Shown here piece by piece: positions 1 through 61,100 of a DNA stretch of 64,000 nucleotides. The stretch comes from a virus. The stretch's first letter is position 1. Each line of letters opens with the position of its first letter. Made by a program: the position numbers and the translations under genes. The notes beneath the pieces are model-generated. The model was not told the DNA's origin. It made no database searches and was given only the letters and a program-made list of their open reading frames with translations. The DNA is taken from positions 1 to 64,000 of the IMG/VR virus record IMGVR_UViG_3300012953_000020. One strand, given 5' to 3'.

Positions 1-507
1 AAGCATCGCATCCATCCTTTTCGCCTGGCGTCTTACAGAATTACAATTTTCTGTGAGATTTACTTTACCGGACAGTGTGGTTGAACGAGTGTTCTTGCTT
101 AAAACGCGGTTCCGACCGCGACCTTCAGCAACGGAAATATTAACATCACCCTGCGCATTTACTGTTACGGATGTATTCTCGACTTCAGTTTTGTCGTCGG
201 ACATCTCATCTTCCAGTGCGGGGGGCTCTAGTAATTCGTCTTCGGGGAGAGGGGTGAGGTCTACTATTTCCTCGGTCTCTCCTTCAGGGGCAGAGTCAGG
301 CTCTTCATCATCAGACATCATCGCGATGTCAACGCCCGATATCTCATCATCCACGAGCTCATCTTGCTCGCCCATGATTTGCGCTTCGATCAAAGCCTTG
401 ATTCGAGGAGTTACCGCCTCTATAATCTTGTTCTTGGCATTTTGCTCTGCCATTTCCTTGAGCTGCTTTGCTTCAGCGATCGCTTGTTCATATAGATTAC
501 TTGTCAT
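1..507 (-). CDS. Probable prohead core/scaffold protein (N-terminal part; runs off the window edge; absent from the ORF track)
   Basis: ATG at 507 with AGGTGGT SD (517-511). The frame is open to position 1: MTSNLYEQAIAEAKQLKEMAEQNAKNKIIEAVTPRIKALIEAQIMGE..., a helical N-terminus followed by a very acidic region. It lies downstream of portal and protease, as T4 gp22 does. Confidence 0.65.
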   Translation of the reverse strand, partial: MTSNLYEQAIAEAKQLKEMAEQNAKNKIIEAVTPRIKALIEAQIMGEQDELVDDEISGVDIAMMSDDEEPDSAPEGETEEIVDLTPLPEDELLEPPALEDEMSDDKTEVENTSVTVNAQGDVNISVAEGRGRNRVLSKNTRSTTLSGKVNLTENCNSVRRQAKRMDAML

Positions 508-2779: not shown

Positions 2780-3387
2780 TATTCTTCCTCCCAAGACAAG
2801 ATGTCGTTAAAAACTCTATCAATTCTATCAGACTTGTTAAAGAATGTATTGAGCTCTGCTTCGTTTATCTCCCTACCTTCATTCATCATAAAGGCACCAG
2901 GAGTCGAAGGCTCAGAAACAAAGTCCCAACAAATCAGTTGAAAATCGTCTTGAACAACTTGATGGTCTCCGCTTCGCTTTGTCGAACCAACACCACGAGA
3001 TGAAATGCCCAAAGTCACTCCTGACTCAACTAAACTCTGAAGAATCTTTCCTGCAGGGGTGTCCAGCAGTTCTACGCTTCCGTAGCAAACGTCGCCGTCC
3101 ATGTAGGCTTCACGAACAATGTGAGAAACGTTCTTGAGCTCAACGACACTGCTATCTGGGTGATCACATTCACCAAGCGCTCTGTTTTCCTGAATAAACT
3201 TTTGGTAGTTTCTAATCTCTCTATCCAGAATCGGCTTTGGATAAACTCGACCATTCTGGTTTAGCGTACCTGCTTTTTGCAATACACCTTTTAAGATCAC
3301 CTTACCGTCATTTTCCAACCTAGATTCGTTGACCATGTCTGGTGAGTATTCAAATTGTGACCAATTTGTTAATAGCTTCCTACTCAT
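2779..3387 (-). CDS. gp21: Prohead maturation protease (T4 gp21-like)
   Basis: Motifs NQNGRVYP, LGECDHP (catalytic His), ISSRGVGS (catalytic Ser), WDFVSEPS; near the portal gene. Confidence 0.95.
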   Translation of the reverse strand: MSRKLLTNWSQFEYSPDMVNESRLENDGKVILKGVLQKAGTLNQNGRVYPKPILDREIRNYQKFIQENRALGECDHPDSSVVELKNVSHIVREAYMDGDVCYGSVELLDTPAGKILQSLVESGVTLGISSRGVGSTKRSGDHQVVQDDFQLICWDFVSEPSTPGAFMMNEGREINEAELNTFFNKSDRIDRVFNDILSWEEE

Positions 3388-8219: not shown

Positions 8220-8480
8220 CTAAAAGAATTTATACATAGGCTTAAACTGCAGTTCTTTCTTTTGCAGCCAGCCCTTTATTTCTGCTTCACTTGGTTTCCA
8301 ACCAACGCCATTCACACTTCTGTTTGGCTCCAAAAAGGAAACAAAACAATCTCTACACCCACCATTATTGTAAGCACAAACAACATCCTCTAAAGATTGA
8401 AGTGTACCATGACAAACGTTGCAAGTTGCCGGGACTGGCTTATTCCTCTCGTCTATATAAATATCAATAAAATCACTCAT
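8220..8480 (-). CDS. Small putative zinc-binding protein
   Basis: CNVC...CRDC pairs; probable ATG at 8480 overlapping the end of the Mre11-Rad50 gene. Confidence 0.7.
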   Translation of the reverse strand: MSDFIDIYIDERNKPVPATCNVCHGTLQSLEDVVCAYNNGGCRDCFVSFLEPNRSVNGVGWKPSEAEIKGWLQKKELQFKPMYKFF

Positions 8481-11400: not shown

Positions 11401-11622
11401 CGCGACTTCAGCAAGACCCTTAAACCACCAGACCAAAACGTCAATCAGCTCAGGGGAAATCCCTTGGGTCTTTGAATGAACAATATCACCACCAATATAG
11501 ATGGCGTCTAATTCCATTTCCGACAATTGAACGAATATATCAGAGAAAACCTCTCTATATTCATCATGACGTGATAAACCACGAAAATGAATGTCAGCAA
11601 AATGCGCGCACTTAAAACCCAT
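8473..11622 (-). CDS. Fused Mre11(SbcD/gp47)-Rad50(SbcC/gp46) nuclease-ATPase, 1049 aa
   Basis: N-terminal metallophosphoesterase motifs ADIH, GGDIVH, GNHD, LFHG, GDIH. Then ABC-ATPase Walker A GKNRTGKSS, Q-loop LASQG, a long coiled coil, signature ASGME, Walker B/D-loop IIDEGFGSLD and H-loop ISH. Confidence 0.93.
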   Translation of the reverse strand: MGFKCAHFADIHFRGLSRHDEYREVFSDIFVQLSEMELDAIYIGGDIVHSKTQGISPELIDVLVWWFKGLAEVAPVHVILGNHDGLILNKDRQDAITPIIQAINNDRIFLYKDTGTYPLEPHGVNWCVFSCFDEESWSSVKPDPQMINIALFHGPVQGSKVDSDWEIDEPNQITVDFFKDFDFTFLGDIHKSQFLDSEKRVAYCGSTIQQNYGEDLEKGFMVWDIIDKDNFSTEFFPVRNRFSFYTIPWAGTVSSTLDTIDESMTYGRFRIRSSKTIPQSEIKQLFNELREAYKATEVVFKWDIEDNQDDTISIGDTTLDKSDLLNPSTHVKLMSDYTKTFVLSEEEREILESMTKRIASEASRGESRKNLKWSLKKLRFDNTFGYGNGNKIDFEKMHGITGIFGKNRTGKSSIPGTIMYGLFNSTDRGAIKNLHVINSRKGFCNVEVDLTVNGKPYKIERQSAKHTSRAGKTSASTALNLWKIDPAGNKVEDLSGEQRRETEKDLKALVGTADDFLLTSLASQGSMNNFIKNGATVRKSILTKFLDLGIFDNMLNIAKNEFSELKGSMKSAPDRDWATIIRSKRLELESLISDRDETEQQCKKVREEVDSLKLLLATHENSESFTEDEIESQELLLKELKSRSDKMKKKIIAISEEISETEGKLSKIASIKDQFPVEELKEKLGQQKEIENSLQNIQHLLEKERTLLKSQKKSASTLEVVPCGDAYPTCKFIKDSHLSKKKIPGQEERVSEISANCSAVKRNLKKMLGESLEDKVKKYDDILKTESDLKLERGNSLVGLTELEVEDSNVAQNLLEEKNKLSKMKLNATKGSEKKEISRLKKTLKTLTGRSNFLDAEKLRLSEKIGLLQQQLVDSEEQKQKFANMKKQWNAYNAFLQAVDKKGIPLKIMSVQLPAINSEIEKILHGVVEFTIEISADDSTNALDVFINYGDSKRVIECASGMEKMLSSLAIRVALINVSNLPKSDLLIIDEGFGSLDEGNIEACSRLLVALKKWFRHIFVISHIDAIKDVVDNVLDIRSKGKNSLVVYE

Positions 11623-35980: not shown

Positions 35981-36011
35981 TCCAGTCAAAGGCTTGACTT
36001 AAGCTTAGAGC

Positions 36012-39000
36012 TTACTTGTAGACCAAGACTTGGATGTTGTCACCGGAAAAGAGATCGTAAGTAAAACTTAGCGTCTCCGTACCGAATGCATTAATGTCTT
36101 GCTGGGTCACTTTCTGCATCGCTGTGATGTTAGAAACAGTGATTGTGCTGACACTTCCACCAACTCCTGCCGAATCAGAAACTGCGATTGTTGTGTTAAT
36201 CGGCTTAATAAAGCCAGACGCAGCGACTCCGGAAACGTCCAAAGTCGTTGTACCAGATATCACAGTCGCTGATGAAATTGCAACATTGGAACCTGTAGCA
36301 GATCCTAATGTAAGGTCAACAACGGTAACACCGTCAAAAGCACGAACAATCTTGGTTGCTCCGCCAGCAGCTGACAAGAACGCGGTAGCTGAGGAATCGT
36401 CGTTAAAGACTAAGTTACCAGAGCTAGCCAAGTTAATGTCTGCTCCACTTGAGTTAAAGCTAGAAAGACTTATAGCACTTCCGACAATATCACCCATTAC
36501 AAGGTCAGTTGGCGATGAGTTACTCGAATCAGTAATACGAAGTACTGATCCTGGCTCAAAGGTAGCAGCAAAAGTCTTTGCATTTGCCTGAGAGCTTAAA
36601 TCAAGAGAACTTAAGCTTGAACCAATGCTCGAAATCGATGAACCATTAATCAAAGATTTCAACGAGCTATGTACACTAGCCTCCAGAATAACCCCTTGAG
36701 AGGACGTCTTCTTGAAGTTTGAACCAGTCAACTGGTGTTGACCGTTTACAAACGGCAGGACCTTGTTGCCCTTCGCTGCGAAGGTAGAGGCCGACCAAGT
36801 TACGTCTGAATCACCAACAGGAGTCACTCCACTAAAGTCCACCACGTCACCAGGCTTGTGATCTCTTGTGAGATCCAAGTTGTAAAGTGTTGGGCCAACA
36901 GTTAAAGGACCACCGTTCCAGTGCAGTTCCCCACTCACATTGTAGAGCTTGCCAGTTACCGTAGAAGGCTCCGTGATTTGCTCCAACTTCAGCGGGCTAT
37001 TCTCAAAATAAACAGAGTCATTTTGATCGCCACCAGAAAAAATCATACCTGAAGCTGAATCAAGATGTATCGCGGTGTCACTTCCGTCTAGGCCTGCATT
37101 TAGCTTCACGCCACCGACGTCAGACGTCAATAGAATAGCTGGCGTTACCAATAAGATCTTGGCACTGCTGCCAGTCATACCAGAAATGCTCAGTAGACCA
37201 TTACTTTCTAACACTGACGGATCAGTGAAAGGTACCACGACAGCCGAACCGCCGGCGTAGGTGCCTATTGTCACGTCAGCAGTAGACGTCCCATCAGAAA
37301 ACCTAACACGTGACGTAGCAGGGAAGGCAGTCGCGAACGCTGCTGCATTCGACGCGGAATCAAACGTGATATTCCCTGCAGCGGTTAGGTCTAGAGTAGA
37401 ACCATCTAGATTACCACCGTGAGTGTCCTTGGTATTGCTACCTAGGGTTGTACCTTGATCGGAGTGAATCTTGATTGTCTCACTTGTACCAGCATTTGCC
37501 CGAAGGTAAATTGCGTTAGCCTCATCGACAGTAGACGTTACGTTGATATTACCAGAGCCTGCGATCGAAAGATCGGTACCTGAATGGGTGAAACTAACAT
37601 CTTGATCAGCACCAAATGCAAGGACAGAACTGTCACCTAGGTAAAGGTTCGCCCACTCGGCAGAGGTGCTGCCTAGTGACATTATTGTACTACCAGTAGT
37701 AGCCATCATTGCGGATGTAATTTGGACTCTGTCGCCGTCTCCGGCTTCAAAAACGATAGTATCATCGCCTTGAGAGCGAATCGAAGTATCGTCATCAGCG
37801 TCCAAAACGATCTTACCAACGTCAGCTGCCTTACTAGCGCCTGTTGAAAAGCCACCTATGCTGACACTGCCTTGACCATTCAGGTCGATGTCATCAACGA
37901 AAAGCTTACGCCAAGCGACCTGTGCTGTTGCTGCAGTTACTGAACCACCCGCTGTGGCTCCGGAAGGAGAGCCTGAGCTCGAGAACGTACCGAGTGTACT
38001 TAAATCGTCTCTTGGATCACCAACAAAGCCCCAAGGAGTACTTGAAGTAATGGCTGCAGCTAACACGAATATCGCGGTGCCACCACTAAAGGTATATCCA
38101 ACAGTCTGTCCAGCAGAAGCTGAAACGCCTGATAGACCAGAACCAGAGAAAGAACCACCATAGGAACTTATGCTCGATACTGAACCAATAGATGTAGTGT
38201 GACCACTAATATTAGGTAATGCACAAATCGACATTGATGAACCGCCAGAATAAGCCGACGTGACAACAAAGAAAAATTTGCTACTGCTACCATTAAGCGA
38301 TAAGACAGTTCCTACAGCTATAGAACTTCCACTGTAAGAGTTTGAAATAGTCAATGTACCGTTAAAGGTGCTGGAAAAAGAGCTAAGACTAACCGATGAA
38401 CCAACAGCTGATTCTAAACCAGAAGGAGCAGAAGAAGCAGAAGGTGCTGTCAAGCTCGATCCATAAAGAACCGCTACATTACCGGAACTGCTCATAGCAA
38501 AGCTTTGGCCAGATGAGAGACCGCTTGTCAATCCAGAAGATGATGAACCTGCGGAGTGAGATGCGTCTACGGCTGCTTTACCGAGATCATCCTCACTGTC
38601 TCCACCAGGTTTAACGTTGTTACCACCCGGGTTTAAAACAATATCAGCTGCGGCAATAACCTGAAGGTCTGTCGACACGTCTAGGTAGTTGTCAGTTGAA
38701 TCGGTGGGGTCAATATGCAGCTTACCAACTGCGAGACCATGGTAGCTTGAGCCTTTCTTAAGCTCCATTCTGTCACCAGTGGCATGCTGCTGAAACGTGA
38801 TATCATCACCAGTACCACCCTCTAAAGTAAGTCCGCAACCATCAGTCACAGCGGTACCACCGTTATCCTGATCTAAAACAATATTGTGATCAGAGAATGA
38901 TGAAACATTTGAGTCGATAGTCGTATTAGTGCCGGTAACTGTTAGATTGCCTGTAACTGTAACAGTCGTCGGAACAGTATACGTACCCATCGCAGAAGGA

Positions 39001-41039
39001 GGGTCAGTAAGCGTTCCCTGCTTAATCACTTCGTTGTCTGACTCTGTAGTGTCCAGCGTCAAGCTAGTTGAGGTTGCAGAAGAACTGACACTTCCAGCCG
39101 TTGAGTAAACTAAATCACCAAGCAACGTCAATGTCTTAACCGACGAAATGTTAGAAGAAGGACTGCTGATCGTGGTTATGTTTGAAGCCGCCGAAACAGG
39201 TGTAACATCAATTGATGTGAGGCCTGAGGTGACCGCATCATCAAAACTAAACGCTATAAACCCGGCAGTTGTCTTAAGTCTAATTATCGTCCCAGCATCA
39301 GCAGAAAAACCAGCATCCGGACTGAATGTGATTGAGGTTGCAGAGGCAGCTAAGGAACTACCTTGTATTCTTGAAGCCTGGAAACCTGAAGGCCCTGTAC
39401 TTTCAGAATAAAAAGTAAAGTAGAACTTTTGTCCTGTGCTATACGCGGCACCGAACTGTGTGCTACCACCCAGATCCAGCGTAATCGAAGTTCCGCCGAA
39501 ACTGCTAGGCTGATCTAACGCACCACCTGTCATCCAAGTCGTCGATAAATCACTTCCTTTCTGGGCCCCAATACCAATGGTAACGCCAGTCGAGCTGGTG
39601 CCACCGATCGCGATTGCGGCGGTTGCATCGATGTTTGCTGCTCCACCTGTTGCATCAACATCAAGTGTTTGACCCTGAAGACCTAGCGCGCCGACAGCGG
39701 ATAATATTGCACCACCCGCGGGTGAACCGCCCGACTGACCGGCTGAAAAGCTGTCAGAGGATGAGAAAGTGTTATTATTACTACGATCACCATCTGGACG
39801 AACGATTAATGCGATGGCAGAGCTGCTAACGGCAACCTTCACCTGAAACACGTATTCAACTCCACCAGACTTGGTGAATTTGATGTACTGATCGGCTGTT
39901 ATGCTACCGCTGTACGCGCTACCTGAAACGCTACCCACTGATTCAAACGCGTCTGGACCAGAGCTCATACTCAATGATGAACTTGAAGTCTGACCTGCGA
40001 TATTTGAGAGGTGAGCCACCTTCATTGTCGATCCGCTGGAGAAAGCCTCGAGCAAAAGGAAGTAAAGAATATCACTTCCTTCAGTAAACTTAAGGATGGT
40101 ACCAGCAGCTAGTGACATTGTGTTTGAACCAACAGCGATCGTAGACGCCGTCTTTGCCAAGCCGCTCAAGCTGCTAAAAGCGCCGCTAGCGCCAGAAATC
40201 GAACTAGCACTTCCTGCGGTCAGGCTGCTTCCGTAAAGGATGACAGCCAGGTCTGTACCGATATCCATAAGTATCGTCTGGCCTGAGGCCAAATTGCTTG
40301 TTAGGCCAGAATCGCTCGAAAGACCAGAAAGACCAGAAGAGTGATTACGTAATCTGACGTCTTGATCTGCACCTAAATACAGAGACTTTCCTTCTGCTAG
40401 GAAAAGATCACCCCATTCTGCTGAAGTCGATCCAATGTCGCGAGCTCCAGATGAATCAGGGAGAATGTTGTGGTGAAATTGTCCGGCAGATGAAGACATA
40501 AAGGAGTCAGCGCCATGGACACGTTTGACCGCTGAGGCAATTTCTGAAATTACAGAACCTAAGTTCTCACCAGCGTATACACCAGCAGATGCCACAGAAC
40601 CCTTTGCGACTGAACCAGAAGCAGTAGAGACCGTTGAGATATATGTCATCGCTCCCGATTGGGTACCACTGGCAGAAACAGCGGCATTGAGTGAGTAGAC
40701 ATAAATCTTACCACTACTATCTGAAATATAAAATCTTGTACCAGCTGGGTACGCAACACCCCAGGTACCACCACTGACCGTTATTCCGGGTGCAGAGATG
40801 TTACCAGCTGTAAAATTGTCTGGAGCCGTAATAGATGTGCCCCAGGTACCTGAAACTAATCTATTTGCGCTCAGAGCTATTTGATGACCAGCAGCAAGAG
40901 CGCCTGATCGTACAGCACGATCATCAACGACTTGGAAGCCACCCGCGATGAGTGTCGTTCCACTACCAGACTCGGCCACAACTTCCGTCGGGCCGAACGA
41001 GCCAGTAACTTGTTCTAGTCTTGTTTTTGTTTTAGCCAT
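36012..41039 (-). CDS. Ser/Gly-rich fibre-like virion protein, 1675 aa; paralogue of 41126-42994 with six in-frame insertions
   Basis: Colinear blocks shared with the 622-aa protein (DIGSTSAEWGD, SDHNI.LD, AWRKLFVDDIDLNGQG, DQNDSVYFENSPLKLEQI); AAGGA SD. Confidence 0.8.
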   Translation of the reverse strand: MAKTKTRLEQVTGSFGPTEVVAESGSGTTLIAGGFQVVDDRAVRSGALAAGHQIALSANRLVSGTWGTSITAPDNFTAGNISAPGITVSGGTWGVAYPAGTRFYISDSSGKIYVYSLNAAVSASGTQSGAMTYISTVSTASGSVAKGSVASAGVYAGENLGSVISEIASAVKRVHGADSFMSSSAGQFHHNILPDSSGARDIGSTSAEWGDLFLAEGKSLYLGADQDVRLRNHSSGLSGLSSDSGLTSNLASGQTILMDIGTDLAVILYGSSLTAGSASSISGASGAFSSLSGLAKTASTIAVGSNTMSLAAGTILKFTEGSDILYFLLLEAFSSGSTMKVAHLSNIAGQTSSSSLSMSSGPDAFESVGSVSGSAYSGSITADQYIKFTKSGGVEYVFQVKVAVSSSAIALIVRPDGDRSNNNTFSSSDSFSAGQSGGSPAGGAILSAVGALGLQGQTLDVDATGGAANIDATAAIAIGGTSSTGVTIGIGAQKGSDLSTTWMTGGALDQPSSFGGTSITLDLGGSTQFGAAYSTGQKFYFTFYSESTGPSGFQASRIQGSSLAASATSITFSPDAGFSADAGTIIRLKTTAGFIAFSFDDAVTSGLTSIDVTPVSAASNITTISSPSSNISSVKTLTLLGDLVYSTAGSVSSSATSTSLTLDTTESDNEVIKQGTLTDPPSAMGTYTVPTTVTVTGNLTVTGTNTTIDSNVSSFSDHNIVLDQDNGGTAVTDGCGLTLEGGTGDDITFQQHATGDRMELKKGSSYHGLAVGKLHIDPTDSTDNYLDVSTDLQVIAAADIVLNPGGNNVKPGGDSEDDLGKAAVDASHSAGSSSSGLTSGLSSGQSFAMSSSGNVAVLYGSSLTAPSASSAPSGLESAVGSSVSLSSFSSTFNGTLTISNSYSGSSIAVGTVLSLNGSSSKFFFVVTSAYSGGSSMSICALPNISGHTTSIGSVSSISSYGGSFSGSGLSGVSASAGQTVGYTFSGGTAIFVLAAAITSSTPWGFVGDPRDDLSTLGTFSSSGSPSGATAGGSVTAATAQVAWRKLFVDDIDLNGQGSVSIGGFSTGASKAADVGKIVLDADDDTSIRSQGDDTIVFEAGDGDRVQITSAMMATTGSTIMSLGSTSAEWANLYLGDSSVLAFGADQDVSFTHSGTDLSIAGSGNINVTSTVDEANAIYLRANAGTSETIKIHSDQGTTLGSNTKDTHGGNLDGSTLDLTAAGNITFDSASNAAAFATAFPATSRVRFSDGTSTADVTIGTYAGGSAVVVPFTDPSVLESNGLLSISGMTGSSAKILLVTPAILLTSDVGGVKLNAGLDGSDTAIHLDSASGMIFSGGDQNDSVYFENSPLKLEQITEPSTVTGKLYNVSGELHWNGGPLTVGPTLYNLDLTRDHKPGDVVDFSGVTPVGDSDVTWSASTFAAKGNKVLPFVNGQHQLTGSNFKKTSSQGVILEASVHSSLKSLINGSSISSIGSSLSSLDLSSQANAKTFAATFEPGSVLRITDSSNSSPTDLVMGDIVGSAISLSSFNSSGADINLASSGNLVFNDDSSATAFLSAAGGATKIVRAFDGVTVVDLTLGSATGSNVAISSATVISGTTTLDVSGVAASGFIKPINTTIAVSDSAGVGGSVSTITVSNITAMQKVTQQDINAFGTETLSFTYDLFSGDNIQVLVYK
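37610..37658. repeat. 49-bp exact direct repeat, copy in the 1675-aa gene
   Basis: caccaaatgcaaggacagaactgtcacctaggtaaaggttcgcccactc is identical to 41797-41845. Confidence 0.95.
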
Positions 41040-41125
41040 TTTTTTTCCTTATCATTTAATATTTTGGGCTATCACTTATCAAGATGATAAATCATCTCGT
41101 TGCGAAAATTCTATTTTAATGTATC

Positions 41126-42994
41126 TTACTTGAAGACCTGAACCTGAATCACGTCATCAACCTTAAGAGCGTAAGTGAACGTGAGTGAACCAGAGCCAGA
41201 AAGAGTTACATCTTTACCAGCACCAACTCTCTGAAGCTGGCCATTGAGGTAAACAAGAACCTTATTGACCGCGGTCGAACCAGACCAAGTTACATCAGCG
41301 TCACCAGTAACAGAAAAACCTGAGCTGATAGCTGATGAAGCTGAAACTGCTGCTGCCAGAACTTTCGAATACAAAGTTGGACCAACTGCAACAGGAGCGC
41401 CATTCCAATAGAGCTCGCCACTTACATTGTAAAGCTTATCAGTTACAGAAGAAGGCTCAGAGATCTGCTCCAGCTTTAACGGGCTGTTCTCAAAGTAAAC
41501 AGAGTCGTTCTGATCACCACCAGCGACTGTAATACCTGAAGCTGAATCAAGGTGGATTGCTGCAGCATCACCATCTAGGCCTGCGTTAATTTTTACACCG
41601 CCAACATCAGAATCAACAAGAATTGATGTTGCGCTTGTGCCCTGGTCTGCATGAACCTTGATTGACTCGCTTGTACCACCATTAGCATGGATTAAGATCG
41701 CGTTGGCTTCATTAACAGTAGACGTTACGTTGATATTACCAGCGCCTGCTATCGAAAGATCGGTACCTGAATGGGTAAAGCTAACATCTTGACCATCACC
41801 AAATGCAAGGACAGAACTGTCACCTAGGTAAAGGTTCGCCCACTCAGCAGAGGCGCTGCCTAATGACATGCCGCCGGCGGTTGACGGAGCCAGCATAGCT
41901 GCAGTGATCTGGACTCTGTCCGTGCCACCAGCTTCAAAAGTGATGATATCATCAGCAGATGCACGAATTGAGGTATCATCATCAGCATCAAGATCAATAC
42001 GACCTGTTCCACCCATGCTAATTGAGCCTTGACCGTTTAGGTCAATATCGTCAACGAAAAGCTTACGCCAAGCTGTGCCCGAAACACCGAGATCATCCTC
42101 ACTGTCTCCACCAGGAAGAACATTGTTACCACCTGGATTTAAAACAATATCTGCCGCAGAGACAACCTGAAGGTCTGTCGACACGTCTAGGTAATTGGTG
42201 GCTGTGTCAATCATCAACTTCCCAACTGCGAGACCATGGTAATTTGTGTCACCTTTCTTAAGCTCCATTCTGTCGCCAGAAGCCAGTTGCTGGAACGTAA
42301 TATTATCTCCAGAGTTGCCATCAAGGGTAAGGCCAGCACCATCAGCAACTGCGGTGCCGCTGTTATCTCTGTCCAAAATAATGTTGTGATCAGAAATGGC
42401 TGTGTTTGTTGTATCAATGGTAGTCAATGTACCATTAACATCAAGGTTACCAGCAAGCGTCACAGTCTGGCCTGCGCGGCCGATAGTGACACCTGTCGAA
42501 TTTGTACCACCGATTGCGATTGCGCCGGTGGCGTCAATGTTGGCTGCACCGCCTGTTGCATCGATGTCAAGGGTTGCGCCCTGAAGGCCTAACGCACCAC
42601 CCGCTGTGAGAGTACCATCAGAAGTACTGCTGTGGGTAAGTGTAACATCCTGGTCTAGACCAAGCTTGAGAGACTTTGAGTCACCGAGGAAAACGTCACC
42701 CCACTCTGCAGAAGTTGATCCAATATCAGATCCACCAGCAGAAGAAGGAACGATGTTATGCGCGAAAACACCTGCGGCTGAAGCCATGAATGAAGCTGCA
42801 CCATGGACACGCTTGATGGATGAAACAACTTCTGACAAGATACCTGTCAGGTCGTTCGAAGCCAAGCTTTGGCCAGAGGCAGCGGTTGAAGATAGCGCAC
42901 CTGCTTGTGCACTGCGGCTATCGATGATATGACCAGAGCCTGCGCCGAATGAACCGGTGATCTGCTGTAGTCTTATTTGTGTACTACTAGACAT
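41126..42994 (-). CDS. Fibre-like virion protein, 622 aa
   Basis: Three copies of a (D/S)(I/L)G....W..(L/V)(F/Y) fibre-type repeat; C-terminal VLVYLNGQLQ...LTF...DDVIQV domain; AAGGAG SD. Confidence 0.8.
   Translation of the reverse strand: MSSSTQIRLQQITGSFGAGSGHIIDSRSAQAGALSSTAASGQSLASNDLTGILSEVVSSIKRVHGAASFMASAAGVFAHNIVPSSAGGSDIGSTSAEWGDVFLGDSKSLKLGLDQDVTLTHSSTSDGTLTAGGALGLQGATLDIDATGGAANIDATGAIAIGGTNSTGVTIGRAGQTVTLAGNLDVNGTLTTIDTTNTAISDHNIILDRDNSGTAVADGAGLTLDGNSGDNITFQQLASGDRMELKKGDTNYHGLAVGKLMIDTATNYLDVSTDLQVVSAADIVLNPGGNNVLPGGDSEDDLGVSGTAWRKLFVDDIDLNGQGSISMGGTGRIDLDADDDTSIRASADDIITFEAGGTDRVQITAAMLAPSTAGGMSLGSASAEWANLYLGDSSVLAFGDGQDVSFTHSGTDLSIAGAGNINVTSTVNEANAILIHANGGTSESIKVHADQGTSATSILVDSDVGGVKINAGLDGDAAAIHLDSASGITVAGGDQNDSVYFENSPLKLEQISEPSSVTDKLYNVSGELYWNGAPVAVGPTLYSKVLAAAVSASSAISSGFSVTGDADVTWSGSTAVNKVLVYLNGQLQRVGAGKDVTLSGSGSLTFTYALKVDDVIQVQVFK
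41797..41845. repeat. 49-bp exact direct repeat, copy in the 622-aa gene
   Basis: Identical to 37610-37658. Further exact blocks: 42051-42073 = 37894-37916, 42086-42115 = 38580-38609, 42164-42193 = 38658-38687. Confidence 0.95.
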
Positions 42995-52100: not shown

Positions 52101-55100
52101 TCTACCACTACAGTGACAATTCGGCCTGATATAGCGCCAGTAGTACCGCTGACAAAGAACCTGTATTGAGTCTCTGATTTACCAGGGTTACCATAGCCAT
52201 CGCTTGTTCCATCTAAAACAACACAGATGCGCTGGCCCGAGTTGGGATTACCTACATATTTGAGCTTATATCTTACTTTAGCGTGGCCGGTGATCCTGAG
52301 GGGCTCGATCGTATTGTAAATTCGCTGATTACCCGCTGCGCCCGGTAATACTTGCTCTAGCTTAAGTGGAGTTTCCTTTAGAGGATCCACTATACCATAA
52401 TCTGTTATATCAGACGTTGAAACAGGAGCACTCACGTTAGTTGAATAATTTAAGTCTGGCACCAGCGTTGCGACCTTAGCAGAAGGGCCTACTTGGCTGT
52501 CTAGTGTGTACACCCTGTACGTTCCCGGACTCACATAAAAGTATAGTCTGGTGCCTGCATCGTAAGAGCGACCAAAGGCGATCTCAAAGGTGACAACCAG
52601 ATTAGAGTTGACTACAAAACCGCTGGGACTTCCGGAAGCTGTTAAGCTAACAATAGAACCCCACGTTGACTTTTGAGTATCAAGAGGTAGGGTACAGTTT
52701 ATTTTGTCCGTATGCCCGACAGATATCGCGCTCTTTAACTGAAATAGTAGGCTCTGATTGTTGACTCCAGAAGTGGTTGTGGTAAGAGCAACTGCCACTG
52801 CGCCATTTTTTGCTGTTACGACAGCCGACGTTCCAAATCTATCCACAGCGGCCCCATCTACGACAGTGGCGCCAGTGGAGAGAGTTGTAAAATCGTCTCT
52901 ATCAACGAAGACGTAGTCTTTAGTCGTCCCATCAGTCGATGTCAATTGGAGCTTGTGACCAGCTGTGATTTGTCGGCCGCGGCCGGTGGTGCCGATCCTC
53001 TTAAATGATTCCATATCAGCTCTAGCAAGAGACCCGCCAGATATACCTGCGTTATGCTTGGAACGAGTGAAGGGCACCACCACAGATGTACCACCAGCGT
53101 ATGTTCCCATCGCTATCTCGACGTAGTGTTGGGTAGAATCTTTTTTTATCTCTATCAATGTACCTGAGGGGTTGGCAGAAGCGAAATCGCTGGCTGCTGA
53201 AGCGTCAGCAAAAGTTAAATTTCCGCTAGATCCAAAGGTCACACTGGCTGGTGAGGCCGCCAGCAAGGAGGCACCTGAACCTAAAGTGTTACTATGCGTT
53301 TCAGTTAATGAGAACGCGCTACCACTTACATAGGAAATATAAGCGCAGGCTAGTCCTAGGACGTCTTTACGATGAATGCTGAAACCATAGGTACCTCCAA
53401 ATCCGATAGGGGCTCCGTCTTGAAATGCTGCAACTGCATCAATAATGGCTTGGTTACGTGTAGTACCAGCTGCCGCAGCTGTCCGGTCTGTCTCAATCTT
53501 TGGGGAAAATGTCGACTTTGTAATGGACTCCCACTTTTTATCTGCAAAATTGAAATAGCCCATTGGATTATAGTTTGCAACTGCAAAGCCGTCAGAGGTT
53601 GCGTCAGCTGATCCTGTTGTGAAGCCAAGTGTGGTCTTTTGAGATGGGTTTATGTCGATTTCTATTCTAACTCTATTACGAGTGCCGGCATTAAACCTGC
53701 TAGCAGAACCTGATAGGACTGAGCCGGCAGCAAAGTAAGACAGAGCGATGTCCATCCTATCATCATCTACAAAGGGCTTGCTGATGGTGAGACTCGGTTC
53801 CCTGATAAAAAGTGACTCTCTAGCCGCTAAAGAAACATCTGGGTTCAACATCAAATTGAAACCAGTGATATCGAACAGGAAGCTAGACGGGCTTTGTGTA
53901 CTAGTCCCGTATCCAATAAAGTTTACACGACTTACACTGGCATCCGGATCGTTAGGAGTCAGTGTAATAACTGCGTTGTTAGTGCTAACTTCTATCGGTA
54001 AATTATCTTTAGCTACTGAGTCTGCTATTGAGTTTGCTAGGGAAGTCGCTAAATCAGAACTTGATGTTAAGTCGGACGTCCCTACGTTATATCGATTAGA
54101 CGAAGCCATGGTTAGCTTAGAGTCTAGTCTAGCGCTGTATCTAATACCTTGTACTACGAAACTTATAATAGGCTTAAGAGGAGTATTATTATCCTTGTAG
54201 CTGCGCGGCTGATTTTGCACATCCACGAATTGTCTATTAATATCACGTTCAGCAGTAGGGTCTGATAGTAAATTTTCTATATATTCTTGATCTACCGCAG
54301 AGCCCTCTATGAAATTTTGTAACCCGGTAGCGCTACACTCTATGGTAGCTTTAACATCTTCAGCTACCTTACGACCGACGACTATTTTCTTATCTCGTGG
54401 TGTAGAAGAAAAGTCAACCAATCGAGGGTCCGGTGATTTTAGTCCTGACATTCTCAAGTCTGAGACGGTTATGTTGGAAGCTGGGCTACTGGAAACAACA
54501 CATAAGGATGTAGGGGCCGGTTGTATCAAACAAAAATCAGCACGCTTTCCAAACTCATTGTCTGAAGAAGGGTTCTCAGTTATTGTAAGCGATTTACCGA
54601 AGTCTGGGATTAGCGTCATACTGGCTTTATTGGAAGAACCGCCGTTGTTGATCGCAGTTATGCCGAAACTAGAGACAGCGTTTATTTTTGCGACTAGCTC
54701 AGCGACAGCCAGAGTGGCGGCTCGGTCAGTACCAATACCCACTTTATCAGAGTCTGCATGATCTAAATTGTCTCCGGAGCCAGCTGCGGTCGTGTAACTA
54801 GAAGTAGCAGTCCCATTAGATATCTGCAGTACTTGTGACGTTGGGATATTACCTGTATCGAAGGTGTTGTTAAAAGTTACCACTTTTGCAGAACTGTTAT
54901 ACTCGCTACTTGCAGATCCGGCAGCTTGATACTCGATCTTAATTGAATTAAAAGAAAGTCTAGAAACTTTAACAGGGATCCCTGAATATTTTCTGATCTT
55001 ATTTAGCAAGCCTTGCAGCTGATCTACAACAGCGGTTTGAGTTGACAGACTGTTTATACCACACCCAAACCTAGTGGCAGCTGCAACGGGTGCCTTAATG

Positions 55101-58100
55101 TTGCTAGAATCAGTTATGACGCTGGTGTTATTGTCTAGCGTAAAACCGTCAGCGGTAGTAGTTGTTGTGTCAAAAACTACCTGGAAATCCCTTCCGTCTG
55201 GAAGGCGCATGCTAAAAGCTGAATCGTTTACCGGCATGTCAGAAAAAGTAAATACTACAGATCCTGTCACTCCTGTCGGCATCATGTGCGGGTAGGCGAC
55301 ATCAACAGAAGCTAACTGATCGCTGAGTAAATCATCTTTAAATGGTGAATATGAATCCCCAACGATATCGAGTTCCCTAAACTTCCTTTCCAGAAATTTC
55401 TTGGGTAAATCAGATTTGAACCCTGATTTTGTCCTCAAGAGTAGGTGAGACTCAGCGATCTTAGAAGCTTCATCTTGTGATAACTTCCTATCCAGTATAC
55501 TCAGCTCTGCTAGGTTGAAGTTATTATAGAAACTGGCAGCATCGGCGTTTTGCTGCGGTGAGGTGCCGAAATTTGTCGCGACGCCAGAAGTTTTGCTTCC
55601 ATAGCCTATAAATAGTCGAGGGTTAATAGATCCCAAGCTATCCTCTGCGTTTTGTGCTCCAGCAGGCGCTGAACCGACTGAAGAGAAAGTAGAATGTCCA
55701 ACTTGTGCACCGTGATTTTCAGAATCATAAAGTGCCATGAAATTAGTTTCGTCGCTGTAATCGAAACCCGCCTCACTAAACGCGATTACCAGCGTGTACC
55801 ACTTATCTAGTGGGAGACCTATGGCGTTCCTGTCTATGGTCGCATTCCAATAAGTACTGTCTGCCACGTCGCCATCAGGACGTAGTCTAAACTCAAATTT
55901 AGTCTTGTCTGCCTTTAGGTAATACCTCGCTTTTGCGCTGGTGCCGCCGCCAGACATGGTGAATATCACACCATCTGTCCCAGATACCGGCTCGTTGTTG
56001 TAGACGCGGACTATGATTGTCTTATGACCTCTTGCCTTTAAACCAGCTGAGCCTTGTGTCATACCGGCAGCGCTGCTAAACCCTCCGCTGAAACCGCTTA
56101 ACCCAAGATTGCTAATCTTGGATGTCATATCAGTTGATCCTGATTTAAAAGTAATTGTTCCTGGGCCGCCTTCTGCTACAGGTATGTTAGTGATCAGTGT
56201 GTTACCAGCAGCTTCACCAAAATTACCGCTATTTGTATTAAGTGCATCCTCAGTGACAGTGACAGTAGCCCCAGTGCCACCCTCGATGTTAAGGGAAGCG
56301 TCAGATGCAGTATTACCTGCGACCACTGTAGCTGTGACATTCATAGTAGCATTAGCGTTGATTCTGGTGACCATGTGACTCACGACATTGTCGTTGGTGT
56401 TGCCACCGCCTACGTCGATGCCATAAGCGAAATTTAAATGGCTTACGCTAGCGCTAGTAGAGTGCTCTTGAGTGCTGGCAAGACTCTTGAAAGTGATATA
56501 ATGCCGAACATTTGCACCGAAAGAAGCTGTCTCGTCGGATCCATATTCGTCAACGTTGAAAGGGTGTGCTATGACTGTCGCCTTGAGTCGAGCAGCAAGC
56601 GTTTTTACGTCGTTGGCGCCTTGAATACCGATTGTAGTGCCTGAAGTGGAAGTTGTCGCGTCACTAAACGTGAACGTCACTAAAGTGTTACTTGAATCTC
56701 TTAGCGTAAGCGTCTTTCCGTGCAAATCGCTTATTGTAGTACCCGCCTCTATGTATACAATAAGCTGCTTGCTGTCCAAATAATTGACAGCAGCGAAGTC
56801 TATATAATTTGTGCCGTCGCTGATTCTTAAGCGAGGAGCATTACCACCATTATAACTACCGAAAGCCCCCATTCCGAACTCGCCTCCAGTCACAAACCTG
56901 ACTCTCTTTCCGCCGGCGGTGGCTGCGGACTCAAACGCTTCTGAGGTCCTTAAGACAAGACTTATTTTACTGTCTCTTAGAGTCGTCCCATGTAGAACCT
57001 TTTTAGGAGTAGGACCAACAACTGCAGCGCCTATGTATTGTCTCTTGGTCAGTGTTCCATACTCAGAGGGGCTTGAGCTAGAGGTTCCTGACGCTGTAGA
57101 GTTTAGCGCGTCTAGTGTAAGGACTGCTACATCTTGGTCCTTGAGTATACCAGAAGCTGTTCGGTATACATAGTCAACGCTGCCAACAGTGAAGTAAAAA
57201 GCTTGACCTGGTTTATAAAACTCTGGAAATGAAGAAGCCCCAATAGACAGTGTTATGCTACTATCACCATATTGCTGGCCAGCTTGAAGGCTTAGAGTGC
57301 CCCAAGAGCTCAACGCGGTTTTGGTAGACGTCTTTACGTGACCTCCTAAAGTGGGTTTGGAAATAGCAGACTTTAGATTATCAAAAAAGCTTAAATAATT
57401 AGTATTCTTGTCATATCGAACAACAATATCACCTATGCGATAATCATTTGCAGATACTGTCGAGACCCCATCGTAAGCATTAGCCACTAAAGGCTGGCCG
57501 GTCTCTGGTATATCATAAATCGGATCAGGAAACTCAGCTGAAGTAAATTCAGCAGAAATAAAACCCTCGCTATATGCTGTGCCTGAAACCTCTAAAGAGG
57601 CGTGAGTTTCAGCGCCGGTGCTCTGCACAATTATTTCAAACGCCTTCCTAAAGCTAGTAGATCCTAACGGTGTAATTTCTACAGGCGTTGAAGCGGGGGC
57701 ACCGGGCTGATGATTGATAACGGTAATAGTATCACCGGAAAGCGTAGTATTAAATGCGGCGTTGGCACTTACATCGTCGGATGCTCCTGACTCGGGTCCA
57801 TGAATGTATGAAAACGGCAGATCTTCTATTATGCCATCCAAGACAGCGGCAACTCGAGTGGCAGATAATGTCACATCATCAGTGTCTGTGACAGCACAGA
57901 ACCCAGCGGTCTTTCCGAACTGGCCGTCGCCGTGCTCGGTAACAGATATTGTTCTTATCGATAGATCACCTGTCCGTCTGGTTTTGGGTTGTAATATCAG
58001 GCTAGCTGCAGTGTCCCCCCCTGTAAAGACACCATTGGACGCCGCTGAGGCTGAGCCAACCGTGGTGTTAGCAAGGTTACTTGTTACCGTGGTGTTACCT

Positions 58101-61100
58101 GCAGAGCCTTTAGCTTTTTGAGTTATCGTTATAGCAGCCCCAGACACTGCGCTCACTGTGACCAACGAAGCTATGGTACTTTGTTCAATGGCAGATTTCA
58201 GTGCGATAGCAGAAGAGGTGCTTGAGCCGGCAACAGAAAAAAGTGTAGCGCTTGTTGTGCTAGCATGAGCAGTAATCGTTGCTGAAGTGGTGGTCGAAGC
58301 GTCAGCGTTGAGAGCAACAATCGTGATTGCGTTACCTGCCGTTGGAGTATTAGAGAAAGTAATTGTTACTGAAGCCGCTGAAGAGGCTCCTACATCAAGT
58401 GCAATAACGTCCAAATTGCTGGCGTTAATTTTCCTCACAAACTCGTCCACCACGACATCAGATGCTCTAGATGTACCAACACCAATTTGAGTGTTAGACG
58501 ATGCGTCTGCACCTCCCGATGTGGTCGCTGTAGTGTACGTAACTGTTGTTGCCCCGTCCGAAATGACTAGAGTATCGCCCGGGTCTATATTACTTGACGT
58601 AAAGTTACCAGTGAACGAGACTGTCTTGGCACCTGCAACTCGGACGGCGGTGTGGCCGTCGGAAGTTGCAGCAGAAGCAGAATTTGTTACCTCTAGCTTG
58701 TAGATATTATTTAGTTTGTCTACCAGATGTATTTGTTTCCCGTTTGCTTGGGTAATTGTCGGGCACTTGACGGTAAAGCGCATGTAAGATTTGTCAATAT
58801 CTAACCTTAGAGACTCTTCAAAATCGCCTGAGTGAGTTAAGATATTGCTTAGTGTCCCCGCTGCAGAGCTGGCTATACTGGCCATTATCGCGCTCTTTAA
58901 GTTAGCGACGGTGAGGGTGGCTAATCGGCTTGCAGGAATGGGTACAGTAACATTAGACGTGTCTTGACCTGAGATTGAGCTAGCTGATTCGCTAAAGGTA
59001 AATGTCACAGTTGTGTTTGTGAGATCAGTCAGCTTCAGCTGCTTACCGGTTGTTAAATTAGGATTATCTACAAACAGGGTAGTTGAGTTTTGGGAGTTAC
59101 TAAAGCTAGCGCAAGATTGCTGTCTCCTCACTGGGTCAGGGAAATAAACAGGAGAAAATTTCTGAGCGTTACTGGGGATAGCTATACTCTGCGTCAGCCC
59201 AGATGTCACGGTCACAAGGCTTGTTTTTTGTTCAAGCTTTATATAAGAAAATGTATCTGTCTCATTAAAGACAGATGCGCTAACGTTCAAATCAGAGTCT
59301 GCGTTTATTAAGTCTGTTATGTTGTTTGCTGCAGTGGGGACCGTGTTATCATAAGCCAGCCGAGTTGCGCTGTAGATGGTGAATATCTCTGAATCTGTTA
59401 GGATTGAGTTCCAGATCGCGAATTCAGCAATTTTTCCCTGGAAGGCCCTCGTACCGTTATGGCGGTTACCTATACAGGCTGCTTCAGTGTTAGAGCTAAA
59501 ACCGACGTATGTGCCTAGCGGTTCATCTATCTCATCCGGATTATCAGTAATTAATACACCGTTGATATACATTCTGGGGTTGTTGGCGATATTATTGGCA
59601 TCGTAAGTAACGACTACGTGATGCCAATTGTTATCTAGATTAGCTACTGCGGCTGGGGTTCTCCAGTCACCGTATGATGAGGACCACTTTGTATAGAAGC
59701 CGACTTTGTTATTATTTGCAGTTCCGTCTTTAACAATATAGACGAACATGTCTCCGCCGATGTCAAATATCCTGGGATAATTACCGGTACCGTTACCTGT
59801 TACGTAAATCCAAGCAGAAATAGATACCTTTTTTGTGGTGCCAGAAGTAGCGCCCACTATAGCGCTCCACTGGCTGGCGGTCCCTACATTCACAAAGTCG
59901 TTGCCGCCTATGAAGGTATAAGCTGGGTGATTTTTATTCCCAAGCGTGTTAGATGTAATCTTCAATGATAGATCGTTAACGCTATATGACGGAACTATGG
60001 CTGTGGCAGATCCAGTAGCCGTCAAAATTGTTCCGAGCCGTACATATTTCTGCAAACTTTGATCTGAACGATAGGATGACATGGGTCTAGCATACAGCTC
60101 ATGAACTTCATCAACAGTTAGAACCCTTTTCCAGAAACCGAAATCAGCGTAAAGACCTTTTAGGTACCTAGTAGCAGCGTTAGATCCGTAATCGGTTCCA
60201 AGGATTGTCTCATTAACAGTCGCTCCAGCTCCACCAATAGCGACTGTTTGAATAGTGCCGGCAGCTGCTGTGACAGTAGTGGTCGAGGCAGCCCTGCCGT
60301 TTACGTAGATAATTGGTATATTTGAAGCGCTGGTTCCATCGTAAGTGATCGCGATGTGAATCCAGCCGGGAGTCTCGTAGCGAGATGTTGCAGTGGACGT
60401 TTCGTCTGCATGAGAAGCGTTCGCAATGCTGACAATAGATTCTACCGTTCTCACCACCAGATCAGTAGTCGACCAACTCCTGTGGAACTCTAACTTTCCG
60501 CTAATGTCAGATTTTGATCTGATTCGGATGGCATACTTACCCGCCTGAGTACTAAAAATTGTCTGAATATCACTACTGTTGGTGGCTGAATCAGACGGGC
60601 TTTGGTTTGAATGCGGTCTAACCCAGCAAGAGAATGTCGATATGTGTCCTGAGCTTGCCCCTGAAATTGCGTCCCATTGAGTTCTTGTTCCCATGGAGAG
60701 ATGCTGGTGTGTATCAATAGCAGTGTCAAGGGAGCGGCGCCACATATTGTTATGAGCTGCCGGCAATATCGCAGGAACGGACTGATCTACAAACGCATTC
60801 GTACCATGACTGGTATCGTTATAAGCGAAAGCCAGCGTTTCAGTACCCACGTTGGCTGGAGAAGCCGAGAATGTACCTATCCAGACTTTGGCATCCTTAA
60901 TCAGGTCATAGCTTCCAGAAGCATAAGCTTTCTCGTATGTAGAAGGAGCAGCAGAACCTGTTGGTAAATAGTTAGCTCGGGCAGCAAGATTATAACCGGC
61001 GTTTGGGATAAACGCGCTAAAGGCAGAGCCCGTTGCGAAAATAGTAAAGGCCGCTGAATCAACTTTGTACTGTCTTCTAGTGGGTGAAGAATCAAAATCT

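What the first reader, a model, noticed from the sequence alone, without database searches (positions are those of the whole stretch)
36099..40334. Nested ('Russian doll') insertions: modules inserted inside modules
Seen: insertion 3 begins TWMTGG...TSITLDLGGSTQFGAAYSTGQKFYFTF and resumes LVYSTAGSVSSSATSTSLTLDTTES...SAMGTY after about 99 aa (39114-39410). The uninterrupted counterpart is in the giant protein at about 57045-57310 (SWGT...SSITLSIGASSFPEFYKPGQAFYFTVGSVDYVYRTASG...LTLDALNS...SEYGT). Insertion 6 similarly splits LDLSSQANAKTFAATFEPGSVLRITD...DLVMG from its remainder with an internal related unit (INLASSGNLVFNDDSSATAF...DLTLG). Insertions 2 and 4 are paralogous (SGLTSNLASGQ...VILYGSSLTAGSASS vs SGLTSGLSSGQ...VLYGSSLTAPSASS) and also appear doubled. 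Inference: recursive insertion rather than tandem duplication, which would give branched or stacked domain trees. I do not recognise this as a described mechanism.
Basis: partly seen in the sequence, partly recalled or inferred. Interest (0 to 1): 0.85.

Follow-up and report, generated by a model that had tools for sequence, protein, structure and literature searches.

The report
Barrel-in-barrel domains in phage fibre
A 1675-residue tail-fibre-like protein of an uncultured jumbo phage carries small beta-barrel modules plugged into its loops, and in at least two cases one barrel sits inside a loop of another; the architecture is real, but nested domain insertion is already known from other phage and bacterial proteins.

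Summary
The gene 36012-41039(-) is the neighbouring 622-aa gene (41126-42994(-)) plus six in-frame inserts of about 100 or 200 aa.

- **Insert 3: nested.** Removing residues 546-640 joins two partial matches into one full match to the intact module (41.8 bits against 17.4; 30 shuffles gave 25-31). The excised piece is an autonomous 85-aa module found whole in six other protein clusters.
- **Inserts 4 and 2: also nested.** A confident AlphaFold model (pLDDT 88) has one contiguous small barrel (about residues 51-143 of the insert). It sits inside a second barrel built from the two flanks.
- **Insert 6: not confirmed as nested.** Its profile coordinates run 1-65 and then 4-81, like a head-to-tail pair. 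No test resolved it.

The double-barrel block is present or absent at one precise backbone site in related phages. It is 94% identical to a block in a protein whose flanks are only about 41% identical, so it moves as a recombination cassette. No sign of a self-mobile element was found.

Nested insertion is already described for T4 gp18 and cyanobacterial RNA polymerase Si3. This is a new variant of a known kind and moderately interesting. The same scan had noted this stretch before, in notes on this genome.

The parts
36012..41039 (-). Gene A1675: 1675-aa tail-fibre-like virion protein (P0001), backbone plus six inserts
   Evidence: ORF list and translation. No Pfam or PHROG hit. A relative, P0008, carries the Peptidase_S74 fibre chaperone domain.
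41126..42994 (-). Gene B622: 622-aa paralogue with all six sites empty
   Evidence: Collinear blocks at 65-95% aa identity and 75-88% nt identity.
40599..40889 (-). Insert 1 (A51-147): intact type-I module
   Evidence: Profile positions 1-93, E 5e-37.
39705..40322 (-). Insert 2 (A240-445): diverged paralogue of insert 4, so the same barrel-in-barrel block by homology
   Evidence: phmmer E 9.6e-18 over query 9-215.
39405..39560 (-). Insert 3, outer type-I module, N half (A494-545), ending in the strand KFYFTF
   Evidence: Profile positions 4-48.
39120..39404 (-). Insert 3, inner 'FQ' module (A546-640): a contiguous small beta-barrel in the central hairpin turn of the outer module
   Evidence: Best excision. 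Full-length matches in P0010, P0012 and P0016-P0020, E 1e-8 to 1e-13. AF2 pLDDT 80-92.
38967..39119 (-). Insert 3, outer type-I module, C half (A641-691), resuming at GD-LVYST
   Evidence: Profile positions 52-78. The rejoined sequence gives one domain covering positions 4-79.
38430..38561 (-). Insert 4, outer barrel, N part (about A827-870)
   Evidence: AF2 strands at 7-9, 26-28, 35-39 and 48-50. VIA alignments span model 12..219 with only about 88 aligned residues.
38151..38429 (-). Insert 4, inner barrel (about A871-963), contiguous
   Evidence: VIA hits confined to model 50-142: 8rk3_o Z 5.4, 8ck1_A Z 5.2, 8vjh_A Z 5.0. HHalign to the FQ core, P 2e-4.
37932..38150 (-). Insert 4, outer barrel, C part (about A964-1036)
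   Evidence: AF2 strands at 159-164, 167-173, 184-189 and 207-215. HHalign to the FQ core, P 5e-4.
37137..37436 (-). Insert 5 (A1202-1301): intact type-II module
   Evidence: Profile positions 1-81, E 2e-29.
36471..36665 (-). Insert 6, unit a (A1459-1523): type-II profile positions 1-65 of 81
36213..36464 (-). Insert 6, unit b (A1526-1609): type-II profile positions 4-81
36105..36212 (-). Insert 6 tail (A1610-1645): unassigned. It is either a linker or the missing end of unit a.
   Evidence: Length bookkeeping only. Similarity tests have no power here.
57050..57307 (-). Intact type-I module in the 5220-aa protein (G1514-1599), the uninterrupted counterpart of the insert-3 outer module
52388..52669 (-). 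Second intact type-I module in the 5220-aa protein (G3060-3153)
53027..53275 (-). Intact type-II module in the 5220-aa protein (G2858-2940)

Best explanation
A1675 is a tail-fibre-like structural protein of an uncultured T4-like jumbo phage. Its backbone is that of the neighbouring 622-aa paralogue.

Six surface loops of that backbone carry small (about 85-100 aa), Ser/Thr/Gly-rich beta-barrel modules. These belong to at least four sequence families that are weakly related at profile level.

A small barrel has its two ends close together, so it can be spliced in frame into any exposed loop, including a loop of another barrel. This has happened at least twice:
- In insert 3, an 'FQ' barrel sits in the turn of the central hairpin of a type-I module.
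- In the 217-aa block that forms inserts 4 and 2, a contiguous barrel sits between the first strands and the core hairpin of an outer barrel.

The two inner barrels occupy different loops of their outer barrels, so these were independent events.

The blocks are gained, lost and exchanged as cassettes by ordinary recombination at short conserved backbone motifs (DSxDxLG | AWxxL[YF]VDxIDLNGQG). No dedicated mobility machinery is involved.

Shown: the anatomy, the nesting in inserts 3 and 4/2, the presence/absence polymorphism and the mosaic identity. Inferred: that the modules project from the fibre shaft and serve as decoration or adhesion modules (about 50% likely), and that recombination at the flanking motifs is the route of exchange.
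For: Backbone and six inserts.

Insert 3:
- Split profile hit (4-48 and 52-78). The optimum of 12,561 excisions is at A546-640: 41.8 against 17.4 bits, E 7e-15. None of 30 shuffles exceeds 31.3 bits.
- The inner unit is autonomous. In a search of 1.84 billion representatives, all six non-self hits match only the inner unit, as a contiguous unit of about 85 aa with two copies per protein.
- In the AF2 model, the inner domain has pLDDT 80-92. It is flanked by long strands at residues 45-55 and 140-153.

Insert 4:
- AF2 pLDDT 88.3, pTM 0.86 with 12 rows.
- Small-barrel PDB domains align in two ways. Some align to model 50-142 contiguously (8rk3_o Z 5.4, 79 aligned). Others align to model 12..219 with only about 88 residues aligned to a chain stretch of about 90 residues (9in6_M Z 5.6, 7qof_A 4.6, 8iw2_A 4.5, 7w1c_A 4.3).
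- 9in6_M residues 62-152 also match the contiguous inner barrel of insert 3 (Z 6.1).
- The FQ core profile hits insert 4 twice.

Cassette behaviour:
- The site is empty in B622, L043, L044, L045, L046 and L007. It is filled in A, P0004, L042, P0003 (twice), P0005-7 and P0021-25, with the same boundaries.
- Between A and P0004, the block is 94% identical and the flanks 41% and 40%. Between A and B, the flanks are 75% and 77% identical.
- GC3 of insert 4 is 0.29 against 0.40 for the backbone.
- Other proteins carry the FQ module after a similar DSxxxLG motif.
Against: - No coordinates were available. The pairing of the flanking strands in insert 3 and the discontinuous outer barrel of insert 4 are read from secondary-structure strings and from aligned length against aligned range. 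They were not read from contacts.
- The outer module of insert 3 was modelled at pLDDT below 50, because no alignment rows covered it.
- All structural matches are Z 6.1 or lower, which shows a generic small barrel and not a family.
- Insert 6 does not fit the nested pattern by any test run here.
- The direction of change (gain or loss) is inferred only for insert 4.
- Function is untested.
- The fibre assignment rests on relatives and on gene neighbourhood.
Confidence: 0.75

Rival explanations
1. The 200-aa inserts are simple head-to-tail tandem pairs of one module, made by tandem duplication.
For: Insert 6 reads as type-II profile positions 1-65 followed directly by positions 4-81. No excision raises the score meaningfully.
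Against: - Insert 3: the order along the chain is outer positions 4-48, then a complete unrelated module, then outer positions 52-78.
- Insert 4: one barrel is contiguous and the other is built from both flanks.
- In insert 6, unit a lacks about 31 residues at its end, and about 27 surplus residues follow unit b. That would fit nesting as well.
Confidence: 0.05
2. The modules are an actively mobile, in-frame 'plug-in' element with its own targeting or transfer mechanism. It seeks loop-coding hot spots, including loops of its own copies.
For: - The same module families occur in otherwise unrelated virion genes of this phage.
- The site is precisely empty or filled in several phages.
- The block is 94% identical inside flanks that are about 41% identical.
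- Different modules occupy similar DSxxxLG-type backbone motifs.
- Earlier notes of this scan report nesting in other genes of the same genome. Those notes were not checked here.
Against: - No target-site duplication, terminal repeat or conserved DNA end is seen at the six junctions.
- Copies within the genome share only 30-43% aa identity and show no nucleotide-level repeat.
- No Pfam domain of any kind, intein, endonuclease or transposase included, was found in the gene.
- The nested 217-aa block is inherited as one unit.
- Mosaic exchange at conserved motifs is ordinary for fibre genes.
Confidence: 0.1
3. All sites were filled ancestrally. B622 and the other empty versions are deletion derivatives, so nothing was ever inserted in this lineage.
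For: Clean in-frame junctions are equally compatible with deletion. The insert-4 block is widespread among homologues.
Against: - A's backbone is closest to B (75-77%), while its insert-4 block is closest to P0004 (94%), whose flanks are about 41% identical. So the block arrived or was replaced independently of the backbone.
- Inserts 3, 5 and 6 have no counterpart in any homologue found.
- Six independent precise deletions in one gene copy are less parsimonious.
Confidence: 0.12
4. The resemblances are artefacts of Ser/Thr/Gly/Ala-rich low-complexity sequence.
For: The inserts are 21.6% Ser. Uncorrected BLAST gives many spurious long alignments. Shuffled sequence still reaches 25-31 bits in the excision scan.
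Against: - The real excision score is 41.8 bits, above all 30 shuffles.
- Whole-library E-values are 1e-13 for the inner module.
- AF2 pLDDT is 88 for insert 4.
- Block boundaries are conserved across phages.
Confidence: 0.02

Closest known systems
T4 tail sheath protein gp18 (domain I in II, II in III, III in IV)
   Same: A phage virion protein with successive nested domain insertions. [quoted passage not shown] In sheath proteins, jumbo phages have the most added domains (PMC9230969).
   Different: The gp18 domains have different folds and sit in a sheath subunit. Here, barrels of one fold class nest in each other and the host is a fibre backbone. The nested block also shows presence/absence polymorphism and is exchanged between phages.
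Si3 insertion of cyanobacterial RNA polymerase (eight SBHM modules)
   Same: Repeats of one small beta module that are not in simple tandem order. Several modules are assembled from distant parts of the chain, so the same fold is nested in the same fold, inside a loop of the host protein (PMC10895346).
   Different: The fold is different (SBHM; not among the structural matches here, which is inconclusive). The host is a cellular enzyme, with no evidence of cassette exchange.
Motif-mediated module exchange in T-even distal tail fibres (gp37/gp38 conserved boxes) and general fibre mosaicism (my own knowledge, not checked in a paper here; a literature search found no usable source)
   Same: Short conserved motifs flank variable segments and allow recombination to swap them between phages, giving sharp identity breaks like the 94% against 41% seen here.
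   Different: In those systems, terminal or contiguous adhesin segments are swapped. Here, whole folded barrels are added to or removed from internal loops of the shaft, and of each other.
Ig-like, FN3 and BACON decoration domains on phage virion proteins (my own knowledge), and insertion domains of HK97-fold capsid proteins such as the P22 I-domain
   Same: Small, dispensable beta modules added to structural proteins and thought to aid weak adhesion or stability. The P22 I-domain appears among the weak structural matches (2m5s, Z 3.1).
   Different: No Pfam Ig, FN3 or BACON match. The fold is a closed small barrel, not a sandwich. The modules are loop-inserted and nested, not appended.

Membership tests
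Nested (discontinuous) domain insertion, as in T4 gp18 | The inner domain is contiguous and exists on its own elsewhere | tested here: met
   The insert-3 inner unit matches full length in P0010, P0012 and P0016-20. The insert-4 inner barrel aligns contiguously to PDB barrels.
Nested (discontinuous) domain insertion, as in T4 gp18 | The outer domain is formed by the two flanking segments and equals an intact domain once the inner one is removed | tested here: met
   Insert 3: the rejoined halves give one 41.8-bit match to intact copies, with 0 of 30 shuffles reaching it. Insert 4: about 88 residues within model 12..219 align to single barrels of about 90 residues. Folding of an excised construct could not be run, because the tools refuse altered sequences.
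Nested (discontinuous) domain insertion, as in T4 gp18 | The same holds for insert 6 | tested here: inconclusive
   The profile order is 1-65, then 4-81, then a 36-aa tail. There is no gain on excision, the tail comparison has no power and no homologues were found.
Head-to-tail tandem repeat | Profile coordinates run start to end, then start to end again, along the chain | tested here: not met
   Not met for insert 3 or insert 4. Insert 6 alone is compatible with it.
Intein or other self-splicing / homing protein element | Hint-domain splice junction residues and motifs, often with an endonuclease domain | tested here: not met
   No Pfam family at E up to 1 in the whole protein. The junction residues (for example Q|K...T|T at insert 3 and G|K...Q|V at insert 4) are not intein-like.
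In-frame mobile DNA repeats (Rickettsia palindromic element type) | Many near-identical nucleotide copies with palindromic ends | tested here: not met
   The only long direct DNA repeats in 36012-42994 are the A/B backbone blocks. No nucleotide-level repeat occurs among the modules, and their aa identity is 30-43%.
Ig-like / FN3 / BACON phage decoration domains | A match to the Pfam models, or a beta-sandwich fold | tested here: inconclusive
   No Pfam match. The best structural matches are small closed barrels at Z 6.1 or lower. A family that is not listed is not thereby excluded.
SBHM modules (RNA polymerase Si3) | Sandwich-barrel hybrid fold | tested here: inconclusive
   No RNA polymerase chain is among the 50 listed structural matches for either model. 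Absence from the list is not exclusion.
Tail fibres with a C-terminal S74 intramolecular chaperone | A Peptidase_S74 domain at the C terminus | tested here: not met
   A1675 and B622 have no such hit. The relative P0008 has one (E 9e-14). So A is fibre-like by kinship and not a member by this feature.

The most novel reading that the evidence does not exclude
A family of small beta-barrel cassettes spreads in frame among the virion genes of this phage lineage, within and between phages. It lands preferentially in loop-coding hot spots, including loops of earlier cassettes. This recursive accretion would be the main route by which the giant virion proteins of the phage (5220, 2737 and 1675 aa) were built and by which their surfaces are diversified.
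Probability: 0.2. Interest if true: 0.8.

Novelty: new variant of a known kind. Interest (0 to 1): 0.45.

Why it matters
It gives a clean natural example of loop-insertable barrels nesting in one another. An empty-site paralogue sits next door, and empty and filled orthologues exist in other phages.

That makes three things testable. First, how fibre shafts tolerate whole-domain insertions. Second, whether such modules act as adhesins. Third, whether module accretion explains the very large virion proteins of jumbo phages.

For protein engineering, the conserved DSxDxLG | AW site and the barrel hairpins are candidate permissive sites for grafting binding domains onto phage fibres. The architecture itself is not new in principle.

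Tried and rejected
- **The look-up of encoding contigs:** DNA for P0004, P0012 and others could not be fetched that way. The search for related loci was used instead.
- **Phage GenBank collection:** tblastn with P0001 found nothing. PHROGs and Pfam gave nothing for A, B or their large neighbours.
- **Alignment rows for the insert-3 outer module:** MAFFT would not place the intact type-I modules across the split. The insert-3 model was therefore run with rows for the inner module only, and its outer part came out at pLDDT below 50.
- **Foldseek:** against PDB and BFVD it gave no match at E 0.001 or better.
- **Insert 6:** the excision scan, local alignment of its tail to module C termini with shuffles (p 0.16-0.73) and a database search with A1441-1650 (self only) all failed to decide between nested and tandem.
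- **Complex prediction** of unit a (A1441-1525) with the tail (A1619-1650) returned no verdict (score 0.01). It is not counted as evidence either way.
- **First shuffle control:** timed out and was rerun smaller.
- **Considered and rejected:** inteins, in-frame DNA repeat elements and a compositional artefact. The reasons are in the membership tests and the rival explanations.
Full report
**Context.** The window is the first 64 kb of a 90.9-kb IMG/VR viral contig judged about 31% complete, so the phage is a jumbo one. It encodes a T4-type portal, a large terminase and an S77 prohead protease. Its portal is about 40% identical to those of Microcystis phage Mel-JY01 and Flavobacterium 'immuto' phages. 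All long ORFs lie on the minus strand and include proteins of 5220, 2737, 1675, 1138, 1088 and 1049 aa. The finding lies inside ORF 36012-41039(-), 1675 aa, called A here (P0001).

**The observation.** A is collinear with the adjacent 622-aa ORF 41126-42994(-), called B. Shared blocks are 65-95% identical in protein and 75-88% in DNA. Six segments of A have no counterpart in B: A51-147 (97 aa), A240-445 (206), A494-691 (198), A821-1040 (220), A1202-1301 (100) and about A1441-1645 (205). The junctions are clean and in frame, with no duplicated flank. Neither protein matches Pfam or PHROGs. A relative, P0008, ends in the Peptidase_S74 fibre chaperone domain, so I call the family tail-fibre-like.

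**Insert 3 is nested.**
- I built a profile from three intact 'type-I' modules only: A61-147, and 1510-1600 and 3058-3152 of the 5220-aa protein. In A it hits positions 4-48 at A500-543 and positions 52-78 at A642-666.
- I made all 12,561 possible excisions within A494-691 and scored each rejoined sequence. The optimum removes A546-640 and gives a single domain over positions 4-79 at 41.8 bits (E 7e-15). The unexcised sequence scores 17.4 bits.
- I shuffled everything downstream of residue 549 thirty times and repeated a reduced scan of excisions. This gave 25.2-31.3 bits.
- The break falls in the turn of the central hairpin. Intact copies read FYFTV-GSVD-YVYRT or RFYIS-DSSGK-IYVYS. Insert 3 reads KFYFTF-[95 aa]-GD-LVYST.
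- The excised piece is a module in its own right. In a HMMER search of 1.84 billion representatives with the whole insert, only six other proteins scored. All of them match only the inner part, as a contiguous unit of about 85 aa beginning S-F-Q-x-S-R-[IL]-Q, with two copies per protein.
- AlphaFold2, with six such modules as alignment rows, models the inner part as a compact beta domain (pLDDT 80-92). It is flanked by two long strands, residues 45-55 and 140-153 of the insert.
- The outer module had no alignment rows and was modelled at pLDDT below 50.

**Inserts 4 and 2 are nested too.**
- Insert 4 recurs as one block of about 217 aa in P0003 (twice), P0004-P0007 and P0021-P0025, at 46-97% identity. 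Insert 2 is a diverged copy (E 1e-17, 40-43% identity).
- With 12 rows, AlphaFold2 gives pLDDT 88.3 and pTM 0.86.
- Aligning the model to 48,161 PDB chains gives two kinds of match to the same class of small barrels. Some chains align to model residues 50-142 contiguously (8rk3_o Z 5.4 with 79 aligned, 8ck1_A Z 5.2, 8vjh_A Z 5.0).
- Other chains align to a range of 12..219 with only about 88 aligned residues, against a chain stretch of about 90 residues. These are 9in6_M Z 5.6, 7qof_A 4.6, pyruvate kinase 8iw2_A 4.5, 7w1c_A 4.3, HerA 4d2i_B 3.6 and F1 ATPase 1fx0_A 3.5.
- The 9in6_M stretch 62-152 also matches the contiguous inner barrel of insert 3 (Z 6.1).
- The simplest reading is that one barrel occupies residues of about 51-143. 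A second barrel is made of residues of about 7-50 plus 144-216.
- Profile comparison agrees. The core of the FQ module matches insert 4 twice, at columns 75-123 (P 2e-4) and 149-181 (P 5e-4).
- Here the inner barrel lies before the core hairpin of the outer barrel (strands 159-164 and 167-173 are uninterrupted). In insert 3 it lies in the turn of the core hairpin. I infer that these are two separate events.

**Insert 6 is not resolved.** A 'type-II' profile (from insert 5 and residues 2858-2940 of the giant protein) matches A1459-1523 over positions 1-65 of 81. It then matches A1526-1609 over positions 4-81, and 36 residues follow. That is the order of a head-to-tail pair whose first unit is cut short. 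No excision improves the match (23.9 to at most 26.2 bits). The C-terminal parts are too diverged for any comparison: even bona fide equivalents give p = 0.16. No homologue exists in the searched length range. One hint of nesting remains. Unit a lacks about 31 residues, and about 27 surplus residues follow unit b.

**What the modules are.** Structural matches are weak (Z 6.1 or lower; Foldseek found nothing at E 0.001 or better). They point to a generic small closed beta-barrel. The same kind occurs as an accessory or inserted domain in phage capsid, tail-tip and baseplate proteins, in pyruvate kinase domain B, in EF-Tu domain 2 and in HerA and F1 N-terminal barrels. The families are only weakly related by profile (FQ against type I, P 4e-4). 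The inserts are 21.6% serine.

**How the blocks behave.** The backbone site of insert 4 is conserved: DSxDxLG, then about four residues, then AWxxL[YF]VDxIDLNGQG.
- The site is empty in B and in fibre genes of five other viral contigs (L043, L044, L045, L046, L007). It is filled with the double barrel, at the same boundaries, in A, P0004, L042 and the other homologues.
- Between A and P0004, the block is 94% identical while the flanks are 41% and 40% identical. Between A and B, the flanks are 75% and 77% identical.
- Insert 4 has GC3 of 0.29 against 0.40 for the backbone.
- Other proteins carry the FQ module directly after a similar DSxxxLG motif.

So the nested block is an old unit that is gained, lost and exchanged as a cassette. 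I found no terminal repeats, no target duplication, no nucleotide-level copies and no enzyme domain that would indicate a self-mobile element. Recombination at the short conserved motifs is the most economical route, and this is an inference.

**Comparison with what is known.** Nested domain insertion is described.
- Sheath proteins of jumbo phages carry the most added domains, some formed from two regions of the chain (PMC9230969).

Three things are new here. The host is a fibre backbone. The modules belong to unannotated barrel families. And a filled/empty series exists, both side by side in one genome and across phages.

**Verdict.** The interpretation as insertion rather than tandem duplication is right for those three. 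The claim of an undescribed mechanism is not. Earlier notes of this scan on the same genome report the same pair of genes and further nesting in other virion genes. I tested only those that bear on this gene.

Noticed in passing
window 37920-38579 (insert 4) compared with P0004: The 220-aa double-barrel block is 94% identical to that of P0004, while the flanking backbone is only 40-41% identical. Its GC3 (0.29) is well below that of the rest of the gene (0.40). This looks like a recent cassette exchange between phage lineages.
   Followed up: partly
L043:5917-9018, L044:5986-9552, L045:5983-9201, L046:1-1947, L007:8727-11867 compared with L042:5530-8376: Fibre genes of other viral contigs have the insert-4 site empty (LG-ASGT-AW) or filled with the same 217-aa block at identical boundaries. 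P0003 carries the block twice (645-863 and 1158-1374).
   Followed up: partly
window 54494-54916 (residues 2311-2451 of the 5220-aa protein) and 58355-58633, 56177-56473: A 140-aa module of the giant protein matches residues 1072-1164 with only its positions 9-104, and residues 1792-1890 with only its positions 38-136. No excision test was run.
   Followed up: partly
window 37137-37160 / 37113-37136 (end of insert 5 and the backbone after it): Insert 5 ends KILLVTPA and the backbone resumes ILLTSD (B: ILVDSD). The short repeat of a strand-like motif occurs at the right junction only. It may mark the true breakpoint or a mimicked strand.
   Followed up: no
window 8473-11622 (-): A single 1049-aa ORF combines an SbcD-like Metallophos nuclease domain (residues 4-191) with an SbcC/Rad50-like ATPase. 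It appears to be a fused SbcCD.
   Followed up: no
window 36000-42000: AT skew is positive (+0.08 to +0.12) here and negative over most of the rest of the window. This fits the Ser/Thr/Gly/Ala-rich coding of the two fibre genes on the minus strand.
   Followed up: no
P0012, P0016-P0020, P0010 (L028, L039, L041): The FQ module always occurs twice per protein, once near residue 100 and once after a GGN.KP..DS..LG motif, in fibre-like proteins of marine metagenomes. It is otherwise extremely rare: seven clusters in 1.84 billion representatives.
   Followed up: partly
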